Made by a program: the position numbers and the translations under genes. 39,026 bases of DNA from Escherichia phage HK446: sequence record NC_019714.1; one strand, 5' to 3'. The notes beneath the pieces are model-generated. The model was given only the letters and a program-made list of their open reading frames with translations. It did not search any database and was not told where the DNA came from. This document shows positions 6,684 through 38,641 of this stretch, piece after piece (position 1 is the first letter of the stretch; every line of letters begins with the position of its first letter).

Positions 6684-7388
6684 ATGTCTGCACTTTATGA
6701 AAAATCGCAGCTGACGAAGATCCTTATTTCCTCCCTGCCGTCCACCAAAGAAACGATGGATTCCGCCACCTTTCTCGATCTGAGTTGCACCATCAAAGAA
6801 ATTCAGTTCACTGGTGGCCAGAAGCAGGATATCGACGTAACAACACTTTGCTCTACCGAGCAGGAGAACATCAACGGCCTGCCTTCTCCGTCAGAAATCT
6901 CTCTGTCCGGCAACTTCTACAATAATCCAGCGCAGGACGCCTTGCGTGATGCGTATGACAACGACACCACTTACTGCTTCCAGATCATCTTCCCGTCAGG
7001 TAATGGTTTTAAGTTCCTGGCCGAAGTTCGCCAGCATACCTGGTCATCTGGTACCAATGGTGTTGTGGCAGCTACATTCTCACTGCGCCTTAAAGGCAAG
7101 CCTGTCCAGATTGACTCTGTACTTAAACTGACCACTGATCTTCCTTCCTCACTGTCTGTAGCGGTGGGGGCTGCGATCAGCATGGCTGTAGTAGCTGCCG
7201 GTGGTAAGCCTCCGTATGCCTACACCTGGAAGAAGGCAGGTAGCACCGTCAGCGGGCAGACATCCGATACCTTTAATAAAGCCACCGCAGTTTCAGGTGA
7301 TGCAGGTGATTACACCTGTGTGGTTACGGATTCTTCTTCTCCGGTCAAAACGGTTACCTCAGCTGCCTGCACCCTTACTATCAGTTAA
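6684..7388 (+). CDS. Major tail protein with C-terminal Ig-like domain
   Basis: 234-aa ORF with strong SD; C-terminal ~70 aa has an Ig-like signature (YTWKK...GDAGDYTCVV...TLTIS), as in lambda gpV. Confidence 0.75.
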   Translation: MSALYEKSQLTKILISSLPSTKETMDSATFLDLSCTIKEIQFTGGQKQDIDVTTLCSTEQENINGLPSPSEISLSGNFYNNPAQDALRDAYDNDTTYCFQIIFPSGNGFKFLAEVRQHTWSSGTNGVVAATFSLRLKGKPVQIDSVLKLTTDLPSSLSVAVGAAISMAVVAAGGKPPYAYTWKKAGSTVSGQTSDTFNKATAVSGDAGDYTCVVTDSSSPVKTVTSAACTLTIS

Positions 7389-7422
7389 TGGAGATGCCGG
7401 GTTGTCCCGGCATGGATAAGCG

Positions 7423-7809
7423 ATGTCGCAAACTTTAAAACAATTAGCCATGGCGAAAATGGCTGGCTTTCGCCATAAGACGGTCGTTGTCCCTGAGTGG
7501 GAAGGTGTCAAAGTGGTTCTCCGTGAGCCGTCAGGTGAAGCCTGGCTGCGCTGGCAGGAGGTGGTGAAAGGGGGGGGCGACGATGAAAATGTGTCGGTAT
7601 CGGAAAAGGCGCACCGTAATCTTTGCGCTGACGTGGTGCTCTTCATTGACGTTCTGTGTGACACCGATAAGCAACCGGTATTCAGCGTAGACGAAGAAGA
7701 GCAGGTGCGTGAAATTTACGGGCCCGTGCACTCACGTCTGCTCAAACAGGCGCTTGACCTGATCAACAATGCGGACGAAGCGCGGGAAAAGTCTCAACCC
7801 CCGGCGTAA
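7423..7809 (+). CDS. Tail assembly chaperone (gpG-like)
   Basis: 128-aa ORF between major tail and tape measure genes; followed by an overlapping -1 frame ORF. Confidence 0.7.
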   Translation: MSQTLKQLAMAKMAGFRHKTVVVPEWEGVKVVLREPSGEAWLRWQEVVKGGGDDENVSVSEKAHRNLCADVVLFIDVLCDTDKQPVFSVDEEEQVREIYGPVHSRLLKQALDLINNADEAREKSQPPA

Positions 7810-8096
7810 AGTTTCTGATGTCGCTTGCGCTCCGGATGGGGCGCACGCTCTCAGAGCTTCGGCAGAATATGACGGCAAGCGAGCTTCTGATGTGGATTGA
7901 GTACGACAGGCAAAGCCCGGTTGGCGATATTCGCGGTGATATCCATGCAGCGCAGATTGTCTCTGCCATCTACGGCTCGCAGGGGGCAAAAGTACCGCTG
8001 GACGATGCGATCCTGCGCTGGGGTGGTGATGAGCAATCAGAACCGAAGGACCCGTTTGCAGGGCTTGAGGCGGCACTTACAGCTGCGACACAATAA
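7423..8096 (+). CDS. Tail assembly chaperone G-T fusion via putative -1 programmed frameshift
   Basis: The -1 frame is open from about 7758 to 8096, overlapping the G 3' end; candidate slip site GGAAAAG at about 7785-7791. Confidence 0.5.
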
Positions 8097-8153
8097 TTGC
8101 TTCACATGCCTTCAATGTAGCGATACGCTCTTTCCTTAAGTAAAGGAGGCGTT

Positions 8154-8342
8154 ATGGAACCACTGGTAGTAGTGTTTGGAATATTCGGCTGGCTGATAAA
8201 TCTAATTGTGATTTTTTATTTATTACGGTTTAGCACAAGGGCAAATGAACAAGTTGAAGCCCTTAAAGAGATAAATAAAAAGCAAGATGCGCAAATAGAT
8301 TTATTAATACAAGTCGCTCACCAAAGAAAAGACAGTTTATAA
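8154..8342 (+). CDS. Small single-pass membrane protein, YebO-like (HK97 gp15-like superinfection exclusion moron)
   Basis: 62-aa ORF with AAGGAGG SD, N-terminal hydrophobic helix then RFSTRANEQVE motif; sits between chaperone and tape measure genes and is followed by its own terminator. Confidence 0.7.
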   Translation: MEPLVVVFGIFGWLINLIVIFYLLRFSTRANEQVEALKEINKKQDAQIDLLIQVAHQRKDSL

Positions 8343-8349
8343 CTCACGA

Positions 8350-8372
8350 CCCGCTATCAAGCGGGTTTTTTT
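8350..8372 (+). terminator. Intrinsic terminator after YebO-like moron
   Basis: CCCGCT-atca-AGCGGG stem followed by T7. Confidence 0.7.
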
Positions 8373-8384
8373 ATGGGTGAAAAT

Positions 8385-11300
8385 ATGGCTACGTTGCGCG
8401 AACTGATCATCAAAATATCTGCAAACTCTCAGTCATTCCAGTCTGAAATTTCTCGTGCTTCAAGAATGGGGAATGACTATTACCGGGTAATGCAGACTGG
8501 AGGACGCCAATCGGCCGCAGCTTCGCGTGAAACTCAGCGTGCCTTGGCTGAGGTAACTAGTCAAATAAACACCGCGAAGGCCTCAGCACTGGGAATGGCT
8601 GGTGCATTTGCTGGAGCATTTGCGACTGGTCATCTTATATCGCTGGCCGATGAATGGAGCTCTGTTAATGCCAGGCTAAAGCAGGCTTCCCAGTCGTCAG
8701 ATGATTTCACGGAGTCCCAGCGGGCGCTGATGGATATTAGCCAGCGAACCGGAACCGCCTTCTCTGATAATGCGAGTCTTTTTGCGCGTTCAGCCGCTTC
8801 TATGCGTGAATATGGCTACAGTTCAGAAGAGGTTCTGAAGGTAACCGAGGCTATATCAACAGGGCTTAAGCTGTCAGGCGCAAGCGCGTCTGAAGCGAGT
8901 TCGGTAATCACGCAGTTCAGCCAGGCTCTGGCGCAGGGTGTTCTTCGAGGCGAGGAATTTAACTCCGTCAACGAAAACGGTGATCGAGTTATCCGTGCTC
9001 TTGCCGCAGGGATGGGTGTAGCTCGTAAAGATCTGAAGGCAATGGCCGATCAGGGGATGCTAACCGCAGATAAAGTTGTCCCGGCCCTGATAAGTCAACT
9101 TGGCACTATGCGTGGTGAATTTGAGGCAATGCCGCAGACCGTTTCTGCTGCCACGACGAAAGTCGAAAATGCTTTCATGGCATGGGTAGGTGGCGCTAAT
9201 GAAGCCACTGGTGCGACAAGTACTCTTGTTGCCGTATTGAATACGGTTTCTGACAATATAGACACTGTGGCTACGGCTGCCGGAGCTTTGGCTGCGATAG
9301 GTGGAGCTCGCTATCTTGGAGGGATGTTTGGCGATCTTGGGAACCAGACGGCGCAATTAATAGATGCCAGAAAGAACGAAATTGCGCTCGCAGCTGCAAG
9401 GGCTGAATCTGCTACCCAATCACAACGCAAGGCCGCCGCCGATGCTATTGCTGCTGAGCGAGCTTACCAGCTTGCTCAGTCAGAACTTGTGCTGGCAAAG
9501 AATACTAATGCTGAGGCTACTGCCACTCAAAATGCCATATCCAAGCGCCGGGCAATGATTACAGCAAATGCGGCACTGGTACAGTCAAACAGAGCCGTTG
9601 CAGCCTCTCAGCAGGCACTTAACTCTGCAACATCAGTGCTGGGGCTTGTAAAAACTGGCGCTACAGGCCTGCTGGGTCTTGTCGGCGGGTTGCCTGGGCT
9701 GTTGATGCTGGGGGCCGGTGCCTGGTACACGATGTATCAAAACCAGGAGCAGGCACGTCGCTCTGCCCAGGAATACGCCAGTCAAATCGACGAAATACGA
9801 GAAAAAACTTCCCGCATGTCTTTGTCTGAAACAGACGACAATAGGGGGAGAACTGTTGGTGCTCTGGTAGAGCAAAATCGTTTGGTTGATGAGCAAGCCA
9901 AAAAGGTTGGTGAGCTGAAGAACCAGATCGACGATTTGAATGCATCGCGTGGAAAACCGGGCATTACCAGCGAGAACGATGCAAATATACTGAGAGCGAT
10001 AGCTATCGTTACGGATCAACTTGCTGTTGAAGAGGGAAAATTAAATGACATGCGAGATAAATCTCGCGGCATACAGCAGGCTCTCGAAGAAATTGAGCGA
10101 CGTCGCAATGATTTAATACGCGAACAAGCCTGGCGACAGAATGCGGTATATCAGTCGATGATCATGATGAATGGTCAGCATACTGAATTTAACCGTCTGC
10201 TGGGGCTGGGAAATCAGCTATTAATGGCTCGGCAAGGGCTGGCTAACGTCCCGCTCAGACTTCCGCAGGCCGATCTCGACAAAAAGCAAACCGATGCCCT
10301 CGAAAAGAGCCGCCGGGATCTGGAGTTGTCACGCCTGAAGGGTGAAGCAAAAGAGCGCCTGCGTCTGAGTTATGCAGCCGATGACCTGGGGTTAACCAGT
10401 GATCCGCAATTCCAGACAGGCCGTCAGGAGTTGATTAATAACGGCCTTGCTGAATGGCGGAATAATGAGGCCAACAAACCTAAGGCGAAGGGCGGTAAAA
10501 CCGAAGGCGAGAAAACCGAGGATGTGTATAAGCGCCTTATCAAGCAGCAAAAAGAGCAGATTGCCCTGCAAGGCCAGAATACTGAACTGGCGAAGGTTAA
10601 ATACCAGGTCAGCCAGGGCGAACTTGCTTCTCTGACAGAAGCCCAGAAAAAGACGGTATTGCAGAATGCTGCGCTGATTGACCAGGTTAAATTACGTGAG
10701 CAACTGCGAAATTACGAAGCCAACCTTGCCGACAGTAACGCCAGCGCCCGCGCAGCCAATGAAGCTCAACTGCTGGGCTACGGGCAGGGAACCAGGTTTC
10801 GTGAAAGACTTCAGGAGCAGTTCAATCTGCGTAAGGATTTTGAGCAGAAGAATACCGATCTTCTCCGCCAGCGTCAGGCTGGTGAAATCGACGAGACGTT
10901 CTATCAGCAGGGGCTGGCACTTAATAAGCGCTACCTCGAAGAGCGCCTGCGCGACCAGGATGGATATTACGCAGCTTCTGATGCGCAGCGTGACGACTGG
11001 ATGACGGGACTGTCTGAGGGTTATGCGAACTGGGTGGACGAAGCTACTGATTATTCTTCCATGGCCGCTGACGGCATGAAGCAGGCCATGGGTGGCGCGG
11101 TCACCACGATCACCGACATGCTCAATGGCAACGTTGACAGCTGGAAGGACTGGGGCGTGAGCGTACTGAAGATCATCCAGAACGTTCTGGTGAACATGGC
11201 TGTTGCTAACGGCGTCAGTTCAATTGGTTCTCTCTTCAGCTTTGGCGCATCTTCCGCCGCTGCCGCCAGTAGCGGTACTGCAATTCAGAACGCTGGCGCG

Positions 11301-11699
11301 AACTTCACCTTTAACGCGAAGGGTAATGTTTACGACTCTCCGTCCCTGAGCGCATACAGCAATGGCGTGTTTCAGACCCCTCAGCTTTTTGCTTTTGCCA
11401 AAGGAGCGGGTGTGTTTGCAGAGGCTGGACCTGAAGCCATTATGCCGCTTACCCGTGCTGCTGATGGTTCGCTTGGCGTTCGGGCTGTTGGCACTGGTGG
11501 TGGTCAGGCTGTATCTTCGGCTCCACAGGTTTACATCACCATCGATGGCAACGGAAATACTTCCACGCAGACTTCACCCGGCCTTGAGCAATTTGGTGCT
11601 GATGTCGGTAAATATATTGATCAGCGATATAAGCAGAACATCATGCGAGATATTCGCCCTGGCGGTGACATCTGGAACGCAATGAAAGGAACCCGATAA
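8385..11699 (+). CDS. Tail tape measure protein
   Basis: About 1100-aa Ala/Gln-rich coiled-coil protein in the gpH position; start placed at second ATG (MATLREL) because the first ATG (8373) lies inside the terminator T-tract. Confidence 0.85.
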   Translation: MATLRELIIKISANSQSFQSEISRASRMGNDYYRVMQTGGRQSAAASRETQRALAEVTSQINTAKASALGMAGAFAGAFATGHLISLADEWSSVNARLKQASQSSDDFTESQRALMDISQRTGTAFSDNASLFARSAASMREYGYSSEEVLKVTEAISTGLKLSGASASEASSVITQFSQALAQGVLRGEEFNSVNENGDRVIRALAAGMGVARKDLKAMADQGMLTADKVVPALISQLGTMRGEFEAMPQTVSAATTKVENAFMAWVGGANEATGATSTLVAVLNTVSDNIDTVATAAGALAAIGGARYLGGMFGDLGNQTAQLIDARKNEIALAAARAESATQSQRKAAADAIAAERAYQLAQSELVLAKNTNAEATATQNAISKRRAMITANAALVQSNRAVAASQQALNSATSVLGLVKTGATGLLGLVGGLPGLLMLGAGAWYTMYQNQEQARRSAQEYASQIDEIREKTSRMSLSETDDNRGRTVGALVEQNRLVDEQAKKVGELKNQIDDLNASRGKPGITSENDANILRAIAIVTDQLAVEEGKLNDMRDKSRGIQQALEEIERRRNDLIREQAWRQNAVYQSMIMMNGQHTEFNRLLGLGNQLLMARQGLANVPLRLPQADLDKKQTDALEKSRRDLELSRLKGEAKERLRLSYAADDLGLTSDPQFQTGRQELINNGLAEWRNNEANKPKAKGGKTEGEKTEDVYKRLIKQQKEQIALQGQNTELAKVKYQVSQGELASLTEAQKKTVLQNAALIDQVKLREQLRNYEANLADSNASARAANEAQLLGYGQGTRFRERLQEQFNLRKDFEQKNTDLLRQRQAGEIDETFYQQGLALNKRYLEERLRDQDGYYAASDAQRDDWMTGLSEGYANWVDEATDYSSMAADGMKQAMGGAVTTITDMLNGNVDSWKDWGVSVLKIIQNVLVNMAVANGVSSIGSLFSFGASSAAAASSGTAIQNAGANFTFNAKGNVYDSPSLSAYSNGVFQTPQLFAFAKGAGVFAEAGPEAIMPLTRAADGSLGVRAVGTGGGQAVSSAPQVYITIDGNGNTSTQTSPGLEQFGADVGKYIDQRYKQNIMRDIRPGGDIWNAMKGTR

Positions 11700-17946: not shown

Positions 17947-18249
17947 ATGGCTTATGGAATACAGACCTGGGATGCTTCAGGAAAACCCAACAACTATGGC
18001 ATCAAACCCGTTTCCGTCGTTGGGCGAATACAGCTGGCTGCCGGGCAAACCTCCGGCAGCTGGTCTTTTACGGTGCCCTCAGGAATGAAAGTTGGTTTTG
18101 TTCTTTCACTTGATGAAGGAGGTAACAGCGTAGGGCGGCGCATTGTCGCGTCAGGGAGCACAATAACCGTAAGCGCTGCATCTTCTGTAGGTCTGGGTAA
18201 TTATCCGGCCTCAAAGTGTGAAGTGGTCGTTTTCATGGAGAAAGCATAA
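17947..18249 (+). CDS. Hypothetical protein downstream of J
   Basis: 100-aa ORF; motif YGIQTWDASGK recurs in the next ORF. Confidence 0.45.
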   Translation: MAYGIQTWDASGKPNNYGIKPVSVVGRIQLAAGQTSGSWSFTVPSGMKVGFVLSLDEGGNSVGRRIVASGSTITVSAASSVGLGNYPASKCEVVVFMEKA

Positions 18250-18887
18250 TGGCCGAATTTGGCGCGATGATATTAATGGACAACGGGAACCCATTTGTAA
18301 CGCCCCAGTCAACGCCTTTTTGTCTTTACGGCAAGTACACTTTCAACTCCTCTGCTAATGGCAGTTCGCAGCAGGTTGCTCAGAATATTGCATTAAATGC
18401 TGACTACCCTGTGATGGTATTTATCAGGACCACAAATACCGCCCAGCCCACGCCAGTAATATCTTACCGGAACGGCGGAAATATATATGTCGCGGGGGTT
18501 AATCCCTATAACCAGAGCTTCACGTTAACCGCATATATTTTTGCCATATTTCCCCAGACGTTACCGAAATGGGGGATGGCCATCTGGGATTCGAGCGGGA
18601 AGCTGGTACTCACTAATGAGTCCCGCGTGCTGTCAGACTTGCAGACAATCGGAACGCCTGGAGCAAACGGCGGGATTAACATTGACCAGACGCTTGATGG
18701 TTCATGGGCAGTGGCTCCATCAAGGCTGGGGCAAGTGAACAGAAACGACGCTTACTCATCTTGTAGGTATTCAGGCACAAGTACAAGAATAAACGCCGGT
18801 ACAGCCGCAAATACACCTGGCGGTGCTGGAGGGGTGATAAATAATGGAATTATCCTGACAGCAATTAAAACAGACGCCTATGATTGA
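18249..18887 (+). CDS. Hypothetical tail-associated protein
   Basis: 212-aa ORF with ATGA-type overlap to the upstream gene; internal WGMAIWDSSGK segment paralogous to the upstream ORF. Confidence 0.45.
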   Translation: MAEFGAMILMDNGNPFVTPQSTPFCLYGKYTFNSSANGSSQQVAQNIALNADYPVMVFIRTTNTAQPTPVISYRNGGNIYVAGVNPYNQSFTLTAYIFAIFPQTLPKWGMAIWDSSGKLVLTNESRVLSDLQTIGTPGANGGINIDQTLDGSWAVAPSRLGQVNRNDAYSSCRYSGTSTRINAGTAANTPGGAGGVINNGIILTAIKTDAYD

Positions 18888-18994
18888 TTGTTTTGAGCGA
18901 TCAATAACAAATAATTTATCTATCTAATCAATTATATCCATCGATTATGTATTGGTATCTTCGAAGCTACTGAATACCTCTGGATACTATCAAA

Positions 18995-19228
18995 ATGAAA
19001 AGGCTAATTATCTGCATAGCGGGCGCTTTAATGCTGTCTGGTTGCGCTGGTGTACTTGAGAAACAGAAACCGATTTGCAGCGGCACGGCATATATGGGTG
19101 GCCATGAGAATACCGTTATGATTTACGCCGTTCGAAAGCAAAACAACCAGACGCAATACCGGGCCGGATATCCCTTTAACTGGCGCTGGGTAAGTGCGAA
19201 CACATTCACAAGCACGACATGTAAATAA
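18995..19228 (+). CDS. Small lipoprotein (possibly Cor-like exclusion lipoprotein)
   Basis: 77-aa ORF with signal peptide and lipobox (LMLSGC); in the position where lambdoid phages often carry cor or lom-type morons. Confidence 0.5.
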   Translation: MKRLIICIAGALMLSGCAGVLEKQKPICSGTAYMGGHENTVMIYAVRKQNNQTQYRAGYPFNWRWVSANTFTSTTCK

Positions 19229-25823: not shown

Positions 25824-26721
<898 letters not shown>

Positions 26722-36768: not shown

Positions 36769-36918
36769 ATGTCCGCAGTAAACGCGCATTCTCGTGCGCA
36801 TATCAACCAAGAGCTTTTCGGGATATGAGACAGAGACAGGACGGTGGCTTACATCGTGCCGCTCTTGGGCTGTCCATGTCTGCGAGAACTGGCTCATATC
36901 ACCAAAAAGGTAAATACG

Positions 36919-37647
36919 ATGTCCAATATCATCCCGATTGATTTCGAAGGCCATCCCATGCGTTTTTCTGACGATGGCTGGTTTGACGCGACTGCGGCAG
37001 CTGACAAGTTCAACAAGGAGCCGGCTCAGTGGCTTAGGCTTCCTGAGACTGTCCGTTACATCGAGGCGTTAAAGAGTAGATATGGGAATATCACATATGT
37101 AAAAACCAGCCGCGCTCGCAAAGACCGTGGCGGCGGAACATGGCTTCACCCAAAACTGGCGGTCAGATTTGCTCGATGGCTTTCTGTAGATTTTGAGATC
37201 TGGTGTGATGAGCAAATTGACGCAATCATTCAGGGTTCCGTTCATCATATCGACGATGAAAGAATAAAGGCTATTTTCCTTCTGGATAAATCTCAGCCAT
37301 GGGAAAAGAGGTTTAGCGATCCGTTTTATTCTGCGATGTTCAAAATGTCAGGGCTGCCCCGCCATCGACCAGGTCGTCGCCCAGCACTATTTGGGATGAT
37401 CAGTGCCAAGTGGGTATATGGCCCGGTATTACCACCAGAAGTATATGCAGAGGTTAAAAGACGGCTGGCTGCGGGAGACAAAATCCATCAGCACCTTAAA
37501 CCTGACGCGCTGACATTGGTTGAGCGACAGATCATTGCCGTTACCAGCATTGCCAATGGGTGCTCTGATTATCGTGATTTCGAAGCGCGTTGCATGTCGG
37601 CATTCCCGGTGAAAGGGCAGATGAAATTGCTCTATGCGGCGGCCTGA
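36919..37647 (+). CDS. KilA-N domain protein
   Basis: N-terminal MSNIIPIDFEGHPMRFSDDGWFDATAAADKF...WLHPKLAVRFARWLSVDFEIW resembles KilA-N/APSES-type DNA-binding domain; track ORF opens upstream. Confidence 0.55.
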   Translation: MSNIIPIDFEGHPMRFSDDGWFDATAAADKFNKEPAQWLRLPETVRYIEALKSRYGNITYVKTSRARKDRGGGTWLHPKLAVRFARWLSVDFEIWCDEQIDAIIQGSVHHIDDERIKAIFLLDKSQPWEKRFSDPFYSAMFKMSGLPRHRPGRRPALFGMISAKWVYGPVLPPEVYAEVKRRLAAGDKIHQHLKPDALTLVERQIIAVTSIANGCSDYRDFEARCMSAFPVKGQMKLLYAAA

Positions 37648-37907: not shown

Positions 37908-38299
37908 CCATTACAAAGCTCATCTGCGGGTGGGCTTGATAATGAAACCGGAGTTAATTTCTGGTCACTAATTAACGGCAGCACCGCGAAACAACCCAAG
38001 CCAGTAAGTGGGGAAATAACACTGGCAGCCACTGAAAGATGAACCTCCAGCCTTATGGCAAAAAAGATTCTTTGTGGTGGCGGGCTGATGGAAAGACATC
38101 GGTTATTGCAGAGGCCATTCAATGAGTGGTCTCGACAATGGCTTATACCCTGCACGGGATAACTTAACTGATATCCCTTTTAACGGATAAACGGAGCCAA
38201 CAATGGCAGAGATTATTCTCATGACTGAAGAACAGAAATTCCAGTTAGAGATTTACAAACTGGTCATGAACCAGAACGCCGCCGTGCATGGAGACTGGC

Positions 38300-38641
38300 A
38301 TGAACAAAGAGCCCCGCGTATATGGCAGCCGATGGGATAAGGCCCGTCTGCGTTTTCTCCAGCAGCACCCACTGTGTGTGATGTGCGAGCAGCAGGGGCG
38401 CATAACACCAGCAACGGTGGTCGACCATATCGTGCCCCACAAACTGAAAGATGCGCTTAAGTCAGGTAACCCTCTGGCCATATCGAAAGCACAGCTCCTG
38501 TTCTGGAGTAAAGAGAACTGGCAGCCACTGTGCAAAGCGCATCATGACTCAACGAAACAGAGAATGGAGAAGAGCGGCGTGGTAATAGGCTGTGATGCAA
38601 ACGGCTACCCGCTCGATCCTGCGTCTCACTGGAGGACATAA
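38300..38641 (+). CDS. HNH endonuclease (terminase-associated, HK97 gp74-like)
   Basis: HNH motifs CVMCEQQGR...VDHIVPH...N...PLCKAHH; located near cos upstream of terminase genes in circular order. Confidence 0.8.
   Translation: MNKEPRVYGSRWDKARLRFLQQHPLCVMCEQQGRITPATVVDHIVPHKLKDALKSGNPLAISKAQLLFWSKENWQPLCKAHHDSTKQRMEKSGVVIGCDANGYPLDPASHWRT

What the first reader, a model, noticed from the sequence alone, without database searches (positions are those of the whole stretch)
8154..8372. YebO-like membrane-protein moron between tail chaperone and tape measure genes
A self-contained unit (AAGGAGG SD, 62-aa single-pass membrane protein, strong terminator) is inserted between the G-T chaperone and tape measure genes. 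From memory, this matches the location and nature of HK97 gp15, described as a superinfection exclusion protein resembling YebO-family proteins; I cannot verify the similarity here.
Basis: partly seen in the sequence, partly recalled or inferred. Interest (0 to 1): 0.45.

Follow-up and report, generated by a model that had tools for sequence, protein, structure and literature searches.

The report
HK97 gp15 superinfection-exclusion moron
This small gene is the well-known gp15 "moron" of HK97-type coliphages, a prophage-expressed inner-membrane protein reported to stop related phages from injecting their DNA, so the finding is correct but ordinary.

Summary
Window 8154..8342 (+) encodes a 62-aa protein preceded by AAGGAGG (8143-8149) and followed by an intrinsic terminator (stem 8348-8367, T-run to 8372). 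It lies between the G/GT tail chaperone genes (7423..8096) and the tape measure gene (8385..11699). The protein matches HK97 Gp15 ("moron product") at 61 of 62 residues. It is 100% identical to the copies in HK75, mEp234, HK544, HK106, HK633 and mEpX1. It passes Pfam's YebO threshold (38.7 bits against 27) and aligns with E. coli K-12 YebO at 38% identity over 48 residues. Moron anatomy is confirmed: 33% GC against 52-55% in the flanks, and only a 19-bp gap at the same junction in HK022. Published work on HK97 gp15 reports expression from the prophage and an immunity-independent block of HK97/HK75 DNA entry that depends on the tail tube or tape measure region. Added here: predicted N-out/C-in topology as one long helix. 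YebO-like morons sit before HK97-type tape measure genes in Citrobacter and Klebsiella too. This junction carries other cargo in relatives. This phage's tape measure has a divergent central segment, so self-exclusion is untested. Verdict: already known, low interest.

The parts
7423..8096 (+). Upstream neighbours: tail assembly chaperone G (7423..7809) and its frameshift extension T (7818..8096). The moron begins immediately after the TAA at 8094-8096.
   Evidence: PF06222 E 1.2e-60 and PF06223 E 1.5e-20. HK97 annotation: genes 13 and 14, '-1 frameshift'.
8097..8153 (+). 5' part of the moron. It holds a candidate sigma-70 promoter, TTCACA (8101-8106), 17 nt, TACGCT (8124-8129), and the Shine-Dalgarno AAGGAGG (8143-8149).
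   Evidence: Sequence; lenient hexamer scan. CTTCACA and ATACG are invariant in the 85%-identical Citrobacter copies while the spacer between them varies. The strict consensus scan found no promoter, so the promoter is a candidate only.
8154..8342 (+). gp15 gene: 62-aa YebO-family single-pass inner-membrane protein, reported as a superinfection exclusion protein.
   Evidence: Predicted as one helix over residues 2-61, pLDDT 85. TM segment at residues 4-24.
8348..8372 (+). Intrinsic terminator of the moron: stem-loop 8348-8367 and T-run 8366-8372.
   Evidence: Annotated 'terminator, putative' at the same place in HK97 and HK75. The Citrobacter and Klebsiella versions of the moron keep a hairpin plus U-run with different stem sequences.
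8385..11699 (+). Downstream neighbour and likely target class: HK97-type tail length tape measure protein. The HK97-annotated start is the ATG at 8385; an in-frame ATG at 8373 lies in the terminator tail. The only strongly hydrophobic segment is at aa ~418-447.
   Evidence: PF06120/PF20155/PF09718. 82% identical to HK97 gpH, with a divergent centre.

Best explanation
This is the gp15 moron of HK97-type lambdoid phages. It is a roughly 276-bp horizontally acquired cassette (8097-8372) with its own ribosome-binding site, terminator and probably its own promoter, set into the late tail operon between the GT chaperone and the tape measure gene.

In a lysogen, where the structural genes are silent, the cassette is transcribed on its own and yields a 62-aa protein. 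That protein inserts into the inner membrane through its N-terminal helix (residues 4-24). I infer an N-out/C-in orientation, which leaves about 3 residues in the periplasm and a roughly 38-residue helical tail in the cytoplasm.

The protein lets incoming HK97-type phages adsorb but blocks passage of their DNA across the inner membrane, independently of repressor immunity. Since almost none of it faces the periplasm, the most likely mechanism is action within the bilayer. The membrane helix, together with the conserved juxtamembrane motif R25-x-S27-x-R29-x-N31-x-Q33, would interfere with insertion or channel formation by the incoming tape measure protein, or with that protein's use of the inner-membrane protein PtsG.

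During lytic growth, antiterminated late transcription must read through the moron terminator to reach the tape measure gene.

Shown by others for the protein that matches at 61 of 62 residues: prophage expression, exclusion of HK97 and HK75, a block at DNA entry, and dependence on the tail tube or tape measure region.

Shown here: identity, family membership, position and cassette anatomy.

Inferred: the topology, the in-membrane mode of action and the direct partner.
For: Identity: 61/62 to HK97 Gp15 and 62/62 to the HK75, mEp234, HK544, HK106, HK633 and mEpX1 copies. DNA over 7400-8800 is 99.8-99.9% identical to these phages, 97.1% for HK544. phrog_5031 E 4e-29.

Position: same junction as HK97 gene 15. 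HK022 has only 19 bp between gp14 and the tape measure gene.

Cassette features: GC 33% against 52-55% in the flanks. Terminator, kept with different stem sequences in diverged copies. Conserved -35/-10-like footprint.

Membrane protein: hydropathy 2.53; negative N flank (M-E-P) and R25/R29 after the helix. AlphaFold2 gives a single helix over residues 2-61, pLDDT 85.

[quoted passage not shown] It also states that this is independent of immunity and relieved by swapping tail regions with HK022, and that YebO over-expression or deletion has no effect. [quoted passage not shown] Two secondary sources, citing Cumby 2015, state that HK97 injection needs PtsG and FkpA and that the tape measure protein interacts with PtsG.

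Linkage: 85%-identical copies in Citrobacter prophages and 47%-identical copies in Klebsiella phages all sit directly upstream of HK97-type tape measure genes.
Against: No phenotype was or could be tested here. The two primary papers (J Bacteriol 2012; Mol Microbiol 2015) are not in the held library, so the functional claims rest on the authors' addendum and on secondary citations. The authors state that the precise mechanism is unknown.

No consensus sigma-70 promoter was found by the strict scan.

This allele has Leu rather than Met at residue 14. That is conservative and is the commoner allele, but I know of no direct test of it.

This phage's tape measure protein is only 24-40% identical to that of HK97/HK75 over aa ~450-700. 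Its sensitivity to its own gp15 cannot be assumed.

The N-out/C-in topology is a positive-inside-rule inference from very short flanks.
Confidence: 0.85

Rival explanations
1. It is gp15, but in this particular phage it excludes only heterologous HK97/HK75-type phages and not the phage that carries it. The tape measure protein has acquired a different central segment, so the gene would serve inter-phage competition rather than self-exclusion.
For: The window's tape measure protein is identical to HK97/HK75 over aa 1-430 and nearly so from about 760 to 1104. It is 24-40% identical over aa ~450-700. That segment is 97-98% identical at DNA level to LAU1 and SaltyDalty, phages without gp15. HK97 and HK75, the two reported sensitive phages, share a 99.5% identical tape measure protein. 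Escape from gp15 maps to the tail tube/tape measure region.
Against: The determinant within the tail tube/tape measure region is unmapped. The tail tube protein here is 232/234 identical to HK97's. The tape measure hydrophobic segment (aa ~418-447), the most obvious membrane-active part, differs from HK97's at only two positions. Other gp15-bearing E. coli prophages also vary in the central segment, so the variation may be neutral mosaicism.
Confidence: 0.15
2. It is a YebO-like small membrane protein that changes host physiology (lysogenic conversion of an envelope or stress trait, as the chromosomal yebO next to mgrB might do). Under this reading, phage exclusion is not its main role.
For: Pfam YebO above threshold. 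The conserved core R-x-S-x-R-x-N-x-Q...L...Q..Q..LL is shared with E. coli YebO. YebO function is unknown.
Against: The literature reports a clear exclusion phenotype for the 61/62-identical protein and no effect of YebO over-expression or deletion on HK97. The gp15 subfamily lacks the 30-aa acidic C-terminal extension of YebO. In every context examined it lies next to an HK97-type tape measure gene.
Confidence: 0.05
3. It is a tail-morphogenesis accessory protein, as its position inside the tail operon might suggest.
For: It lies between the tail chaperone and tape measure genes on the same strand.
Against: It is absent from HK022 (19-bp gap). It is also absent from SaltyDalty, LAU1 and AsXd-1, whose G/GT genes are 93-95% identical. 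In SaltyDalty and LAU1 it is replaced by unrelated cargo, as it is in Salmonella phage SW-37. It has foreign base composition and its own terminator. Only 6 of 5426 complete E. coli genomes carry it.
Confidence: 0.02

Closest known systems
HK97 Gp15 (gene 15, 'moron product'; AAF31105.1; PHROG 5031)
   Same: 61 of 62 residues are identical. It has the same length, the same junction between GT and the tape measure gene, the same SD and terminator, and 99.9% DNA identity over 1.4 kb.
   Different: There is one conservative substitution (L14 for M14) in the membrane helix. The carrier phage is a different mosaic: its tape measure gene has another central segment, and it also carries a Cor-like gene.
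Chromosomal YebO of Enterobacteriaceae (E. coli K-12 b1825, Pfam PF13974)
   Same: Both have an N-terminal single membrane helix followed by the conserved R-x-S-x-R-x-N-x-Q...L...Q..Q..LL core. Identity is 38% over 48 aa, and the Pfam score is above the gathering threshold.
   Different: YebO is 95 aa, with a 9-residue longer N-terminus and about 30 extra acidic C-terminal residues. It is chromosomal, next to mgrB. It is reported to have no effect on HK97 when over-expressed or deleted. gp15 is therefore a family member by sequence, not a functional equivalent.
Other injection-blocking superinfection exclusion membrane proteins: P22 SieA, TP-J34 Ltp, Tuc2009 Sie2009
   Same: All are prophage-expressed and membrane-associated. 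They block DNA entry after adsorption. Escape maps to ejection or tape measure proteins.
   Different: No sequence relationship was detected: the Pfam, PHROG and PADLOC scans gave only YebO/phrog_5031. Ltp is a lipoprotein acting outside the membrane. gp15 is predicted to expose almost nothing outside.
Cor (HK022, N15, phi80)
   Same: It is a small prophage-encoded exclusion protein carried as a moron in the tail region. A Cor homologue is also present in this window at 18995..19228.
   Different: Cor is reported to act at the outer-membrane receptor FhuA and so blocks adsorption and entry through FhuA. gp15 leaves receptors functional.

Membership tests
HK97 gp15 orthologue group (PHROG 5031) | Full-length sequence similarity to HK97 Gp15 | tested here: met
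   98.4% identity over 100% of 62 aa. phrog_5031 E 4.2e-29, covering residues 1-61.
HK97 gp15 orthologue group (PHROG 5031) | Location between the GT tail chaperone gene and an HK97-type tape measure gene | tested here: met
   The same context is seen in Citrobacter and E. coli prophages.
HK97 gp15 orthologue group (PHROG 5031) | N-terminal single membrane-spanning helix | tested here: met
   Prediction only. Hydropathy peaks at 2.53 over residues 4-24. The AF2 model is a continuous helix over residues 2-61.
HK97 gp15 orthologue group (PHROG 5031) | Immunity-independent exclusion of HK97/HK75 at the DNA-entry step | not testable with these tools
   Known only from the literature on HK97 gp15 (PMC3594210).
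YebO family (Pfam PF13974) | Score above Pfam's gathering threshold | tested here: met
   38.7 bits against 27, E 1.2e-9, residues 14-59.
YebO family (Pfam PF13974) | Conserved core after the membrane helix, shared with E. coli YebO | tested here: met
   I15, R25, S27, R29, N31, Q33, L37, Q44, Q47, L50 and L51 are invariant across gp15, the Citrobacter, Klebsiella and Raoultella copies, and K-12 YebO. BLASTP gives 38% over 48 aa.
YebO family (Pfam PF13974) | Orthology to chromosomal yebO: locus next to mgrB and the long acidic C-terminus | tested here: not met
   The gene is phage-borne, 62 aa against 95 aa, and has no C-terminal extension. It is a family member, not a yebO orthologue.
Moron (as defined in PMC3594210, citing Juhala et al. 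2000) | Extra DNA between two genes that are adjacent in related phages | tested here: met
   HK022 has a 19-bp gap between gp14 and the tape measure gene, against 276-288 bp here.
Moron (as defined in PMC3594210, citing Juhala et al. 2000) | Base composition different from the surrounding genes | tested here: met
   33.3% GC (ORF) against 55.5% (G/GT) and 52.2% (tape measure gene). The ORF is in the lowest 0.08% of windows.
Moron (as defined in PMC3594210, citing Juhala et al. 2000) | Own terminator | tested here: met
   The structure is conserved in diverged copies.
Moron (as defined in PMC3594210, citing Juhala et al. 2000) | Own promoter, with expression from the repressed prophage | tested here: inconclusive
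   The strict scan found none. The candidate is TTCACA-N17-TACGCT, with a conserved footprint. Expression from the prophage is reported for HK97 only.

The most novel reading that the evidence does not exclude
YebO-derived exclusion genes and HK97-type tape measure genes may form a co-inherited attack/defence pair across Escherichia, Citrobacter and Klebsiella. The exclusion protein, almost wholly buried in the membrane and cytoplasm, would recognise the membrane-inserting part of the tape measure protein or its PtsG-dependent channel. Under this reading, exchange of the tape measure's central segment, as seen in this window, is a route of escape from exclusion. The window would then be a natural carrier that excludes HK97/HK75-type rivals while itself being insensitive.
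Probability: 0.15. Interest if true: 0.4.

Novelty: already known. Interest (0 to 1): 0.1.

Why it matters
It does not change what is known. It correctly labels a gene that most database records of the identical sequence still call 'hypothetical protein' or 'YebO family protein'. The mechanism of gp15 remains unsolved, which gives three side observations some modest value. First, the predicted topology leaves almost nothing in the periplasm. Second, the gene is strictly linked to HK97-type tape measure genes in three genera. Third, this phage is a natural carrier whose tape measure has a swapped central segment. Together these offer a simple way to map which part of the tape measure protein gp15 recognises.

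Tried and rejected
1. The strict sigma-70 consensus scan of 7300-8700 found no promoter. A lenient scan gave only 8/12 matches. The promoter is therefore reported as a candidate, supported only by a conservation footprint.
2. NCBIfam gave only a sub-threshold hit (TIGR04561, 15.6 bits against 30). PADLOC gave nothing. Neither library gave a usable hit for gp15.
3. The Rfam scan of 7800-8700 on both strands gave only chance-level hits (Trp_leader 21 bits against 41, centred on the terminator). There is no RNA gene.
4. The primary papers (10.1128/JB.00843-12 / PMC3430355, and 10.1111/mmi.12918) are not held. Functional statements rest on the authors' addendum PMC3594210 and on secondary citations.
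5. No fold search was run on the AF2 model, because a single long helix gives uninformative matches.
6. I considered that the window might be one of the sequenced gp15 phages. None covers more than 86% of the first 25 kb or 69% of the rest, so it is a distinct mosaic.
7. A tail-assembly role was considered and rejected (see rivals).
8. I looked at the G/GT slippery site but did not resolve it. It is outside the finding.

Full report
**Observation.** Window 8154..8342 on the + strand is an ATG-initiated ORF of 62 codons. AAGGAGG lies at 8143-8149, four bases before the ATG. Downstream, a stem of 8 pairs (5 G-C) at 8348-8367 runs into seven T's at 8366-8372. As RNA it folds at -14.9 kcal/mol, z = -3.6 against dinucleotide shuffles. 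The protein has one strongly hydrophobic stretch, residues 4-24, with a Kyte-Doolittle mean up to 2.53. The upstream genes are a Phage_TAC_1 chaperone (7423..7809) and Phage_tail_T (7818..8096). The downstream gene is an HK97-type tape measure protein carrying PF06120, PF20155 and PF09718. No minus-strand ORF of 30 aa or more overlaps the gene, and no Rfam family matches it.

**Identity.** tblastn against 50,697 phage records finds the protein in 36 records.
- It is 100% identical in HK75, mEp234, HK544, HK106, HK633 and mEpX1.
- It is 98.4% identical in HK97, where the gene is annotated '15, Gp15, moron product' and sits between gene 14 (the -1 frameshift product) and tape measure gene H.
- The single difference from HK97 is L14 for M14.
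- DNA over 7400-8800 is 99.8-99.9% identical to these phages, 97.1% for HK544.

The window as a whole is an HK97-like genome, running from what by position is the terminase small subunit gene at base 1 to an HNH gene near the right end. It is not identical to any record. The best coverage is HK75 at 86% and mEp234 at 84% of the first 25 kb, and HK544 at 69% of the remainder.

**Family.** Pfam YebO (PF13974) scores 38.7 bits against a gathering threshold of 27, and PHROG 5031 gives E 4e-29. I took E. coli K-12 yebO (b1825, next to mgrB) from the MG1655 record. BLASTP gives 38% identity over 48 residues, pairwise E 1e-6. In an alignment of gp15, the Citrobacter, Klebsiella and Raoultella copies and K-12 YebO, these residues are invariant: I15, R25, S27, R29, N31, Q33, L37, Q44, Q47, L50 and L51. 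YebO has a longer N-terminus and about 30 additional acidic C-terminal residues that gp15 lacks. gp15 is therefore a YebO-family member by sequence but not an orthologue of the chromosomal gene.

**Moron anatomy.**
- Composition: the ORF is 33.3% GC and the inserted segment 8097-8372 is 37.3%. The G/GT genes are 55.5%, the tape measure gene 52.2% and the whole window 50.1%. The ORF falls in the lowest 0.08% of 189-bp windows.
- Insertion: in HK022 the homologous genes are 19 bp apart.
- Alternative cargo: phages SaltyDalty, LAU1 and AsXd-1 share 93-95% identical G/GT genes up to the stop codon and then diverge. At the same junction, SaltyDalty has a 97-aa protein whose N-terminus looks like a signal peptide (read by eye from the translation; no predictor was run). 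LAU1 has a 55-aa ORF, and Salmonella phage SW-37 has a 137-aa lipoprotein, phrog_890. The junction is therefore a hot spot for alternative cargo.
- Promoter: a strict sigma-70 scan finds none. A lenient scan gives TTCACA (8101-8106), 17 nt, TACGCT (8124-8129). In the 85%-identical Citrobacter copies, CTTCACA and ATACG are invariant while much of the spacer differs. I treat this as a candidate only.
- Terminator: it is retained as a hairpin plus U-run, with different stem sequences, in the Citrobacter and Klebsiella versions. That argues it is functional.

**Function.** The held literature is the authors' own addendum, Cumby, Davidson and Maxwell 2012 (PMC3594210). It makes the following statements.
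- gp15 was the first element called a moron.
- It prevents superinfection by HK97 and HK75 without blocking surface receptors and independently of immunity.
- Swapping tail regions with HK022 relieves the inhibition.
- E. coli YebO over-expression or deletion has no effect.
- The precise mechanism is unknown.

[quoted passage not shown] Two secondary sources, citing Cumby et al. 2015, state that HK97 injection needs the inner-membrane protein PtsG and the periplasmic chaperone FkpA, and that the tape measure protein interacts with PtsG. One recent review words the mechanism as an interaction with a 'TMP-PtsG complex'. I could not verify that against the primary papers, which are not held.

**What I add to the mechanism (inference).**
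- The residues before the membrane helix are M-E-P, with no positive charge, and R25 and R29 follow it. By the positive-inside rule the protein is N-out/C-in, so about three residues face the periplasm.
- AlphaFold2 on a 19-sequence alignment gives one continuous helix over residues 2-61, mean pLDDT 85.
- In the tail, the residue spacing V34, L37, N41, Q44, I48, L51, A55 follows a 3-4 pattern compatible with a coiled coil (read from the sequence).
- If this topology is right, gp15 cannot capture the incoming tail in the periplasm. It must act in the bilayer or from the cytoplasmic face.
- The most likely mode is disturbance of membrane insertion or channel formation by the tape measure protein, whose only strongly hydrophobic segment is aa ~418-447, or of its use of PtsG.

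**Distribution.**
- Word-indexed search of 5.8 billion proteins returns only 32 clusters, 31 of them with a precomputed Pfam YebO hit, from Citrobacter, Klebsiella, Raoultella and unnamed metagenome contigs.
- The commonest cluster (P0005, 59 aa, 85% identical) lies in five different contigs between Phage_tail_T and an HK97-type tape measure gene of HK97-like prophages.
- The 47%-identical Klebsiella phage version (77 aa) also lies directly upstream of a tape measure gene that begins MATLRELI, as HK97's does. In phage ST147-VIM1phi7.2 an IS21 element is inserted just upstream of it.
- Only 6 of 5426 complete E. coli genomes carry the moron, annotated 'YebO family protein'.
- In strain PEC389 the 288-bp moron is 100% identical to the window although the surrounding 1.9 kb is 91% identical.

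**Target in this phage.** The tail tube protein is 232/234 identical to HK97 gp12. The tape measure protein is identical to HK97 and HK75 over aa 1-430 and nearly so from about 760 onward. It is only 24-40% identical over aa ~450-700, while HK97 and HK75 are 99.5% identical to each other. That central segment is 97-98% identical at DNA level to LAU1 and SaltyDalty, which lack gp15. Other gp15-bearing E. coli prophages have yet other segments. Whether this phage is excluded by its own gp15 is therefore open. I keep this as a rival nuance at 0.15.

**Verdict.** This is a known gene with a known role in a new mosaic background. Novelty is 'already known' and interest is low. The exclusion phenotype remains the one defining feature that could not be tested here.

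Noticed in passing
window 9740-10536 (tape measure gene 8385..11699, aa ~450-700): The tape measure protein has a mosaic centre. It is identical to HK97/HK75 at both ends but 24-40% identical in the middle, and 15 aa longer overall. The central segment is 97-98% identical at DNA level to Enterobacter phage LAU1 and E. coli phage SaltyDalty, and 92% to Aeromonas phage AsXd-1. None of these carries gp15. No gp15-carrying phage in the collection has this segment.
   Followed up: partly
window 18995..19228 (+), with 17947..18249 and 18249..18887 upstream: A second exclusion-type moron is present. The 77-aa ORF matches PHROG 1119, 'Cor superinfection exclusion protein' (E 2e-37). It follows ORFs matching 'outer membrane protein' (phrog_557) and 'membrane associated protein' (phrog_425). 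The GC minimum of the whole window (0.317) lies at about 18761-18891. The phage thus appears to carry both gp15 and Cor.
   Followed up: partly
GT|tape-measure junction in relatives: L002:2204-2497, L003:349-762, L004:2395-2562, L005:1098-3716: The same junction holds unrelated cargo in related phages. SaltyDalty has a 97-aa protein with a signal-peptide-like N-terminus and no PHROG hit. Salmonella phage SW-37 has a 137-aa lipoprotein (phrog_890). LAU1 has a 55-aa ORF. Klebsiella phage ST147-VIM1phi7.2 has a YebO-like 77-aa gene with an IS21 element (transposase plus AAA ATPase) inserted just upstream.
   Followed up: partly
L015 (E. coli PEC389 prophage) against window 7400-9319: The 288-bp moron is 100% identical although the flanking 1.9 kb is only 91% identical. 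The cassette is more conserved than its surroundings, which suggests recent exchange by recombination or strong constraint.
   Followed up: no
window 8373 against 8385: There are two in-frame ATGs for the tape measure gene. The first lies inside the T-tail of the moron terminator and is used in the HK75 annotation (MGENMATL...). The second is the HK97-annotated start (MATLRELI...), which is also the start in the Klebsiella and Citrobacter homologues.
   Followed up: partly
window 7783-7791: The G to GT -1 frameshift region reads cgg gaa aag in the G frame, containing GGGAAAAG. I could not place a canonical X XXY YYZ heptamer in frame by eye and did not resolve the slip site.
   Followed up: no
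window 26401..26721 (-), 36844..37647 (+), 38288..38641 (+): The early region is lambda-like rather than HK022-like. It has an N protein with the N36 peptide (PF11438, E 1.5e-26). There is also a KilA-N/P63C protein, and an HNH endonuclease gene next to the right end, as in HK97.
   Followed up: no
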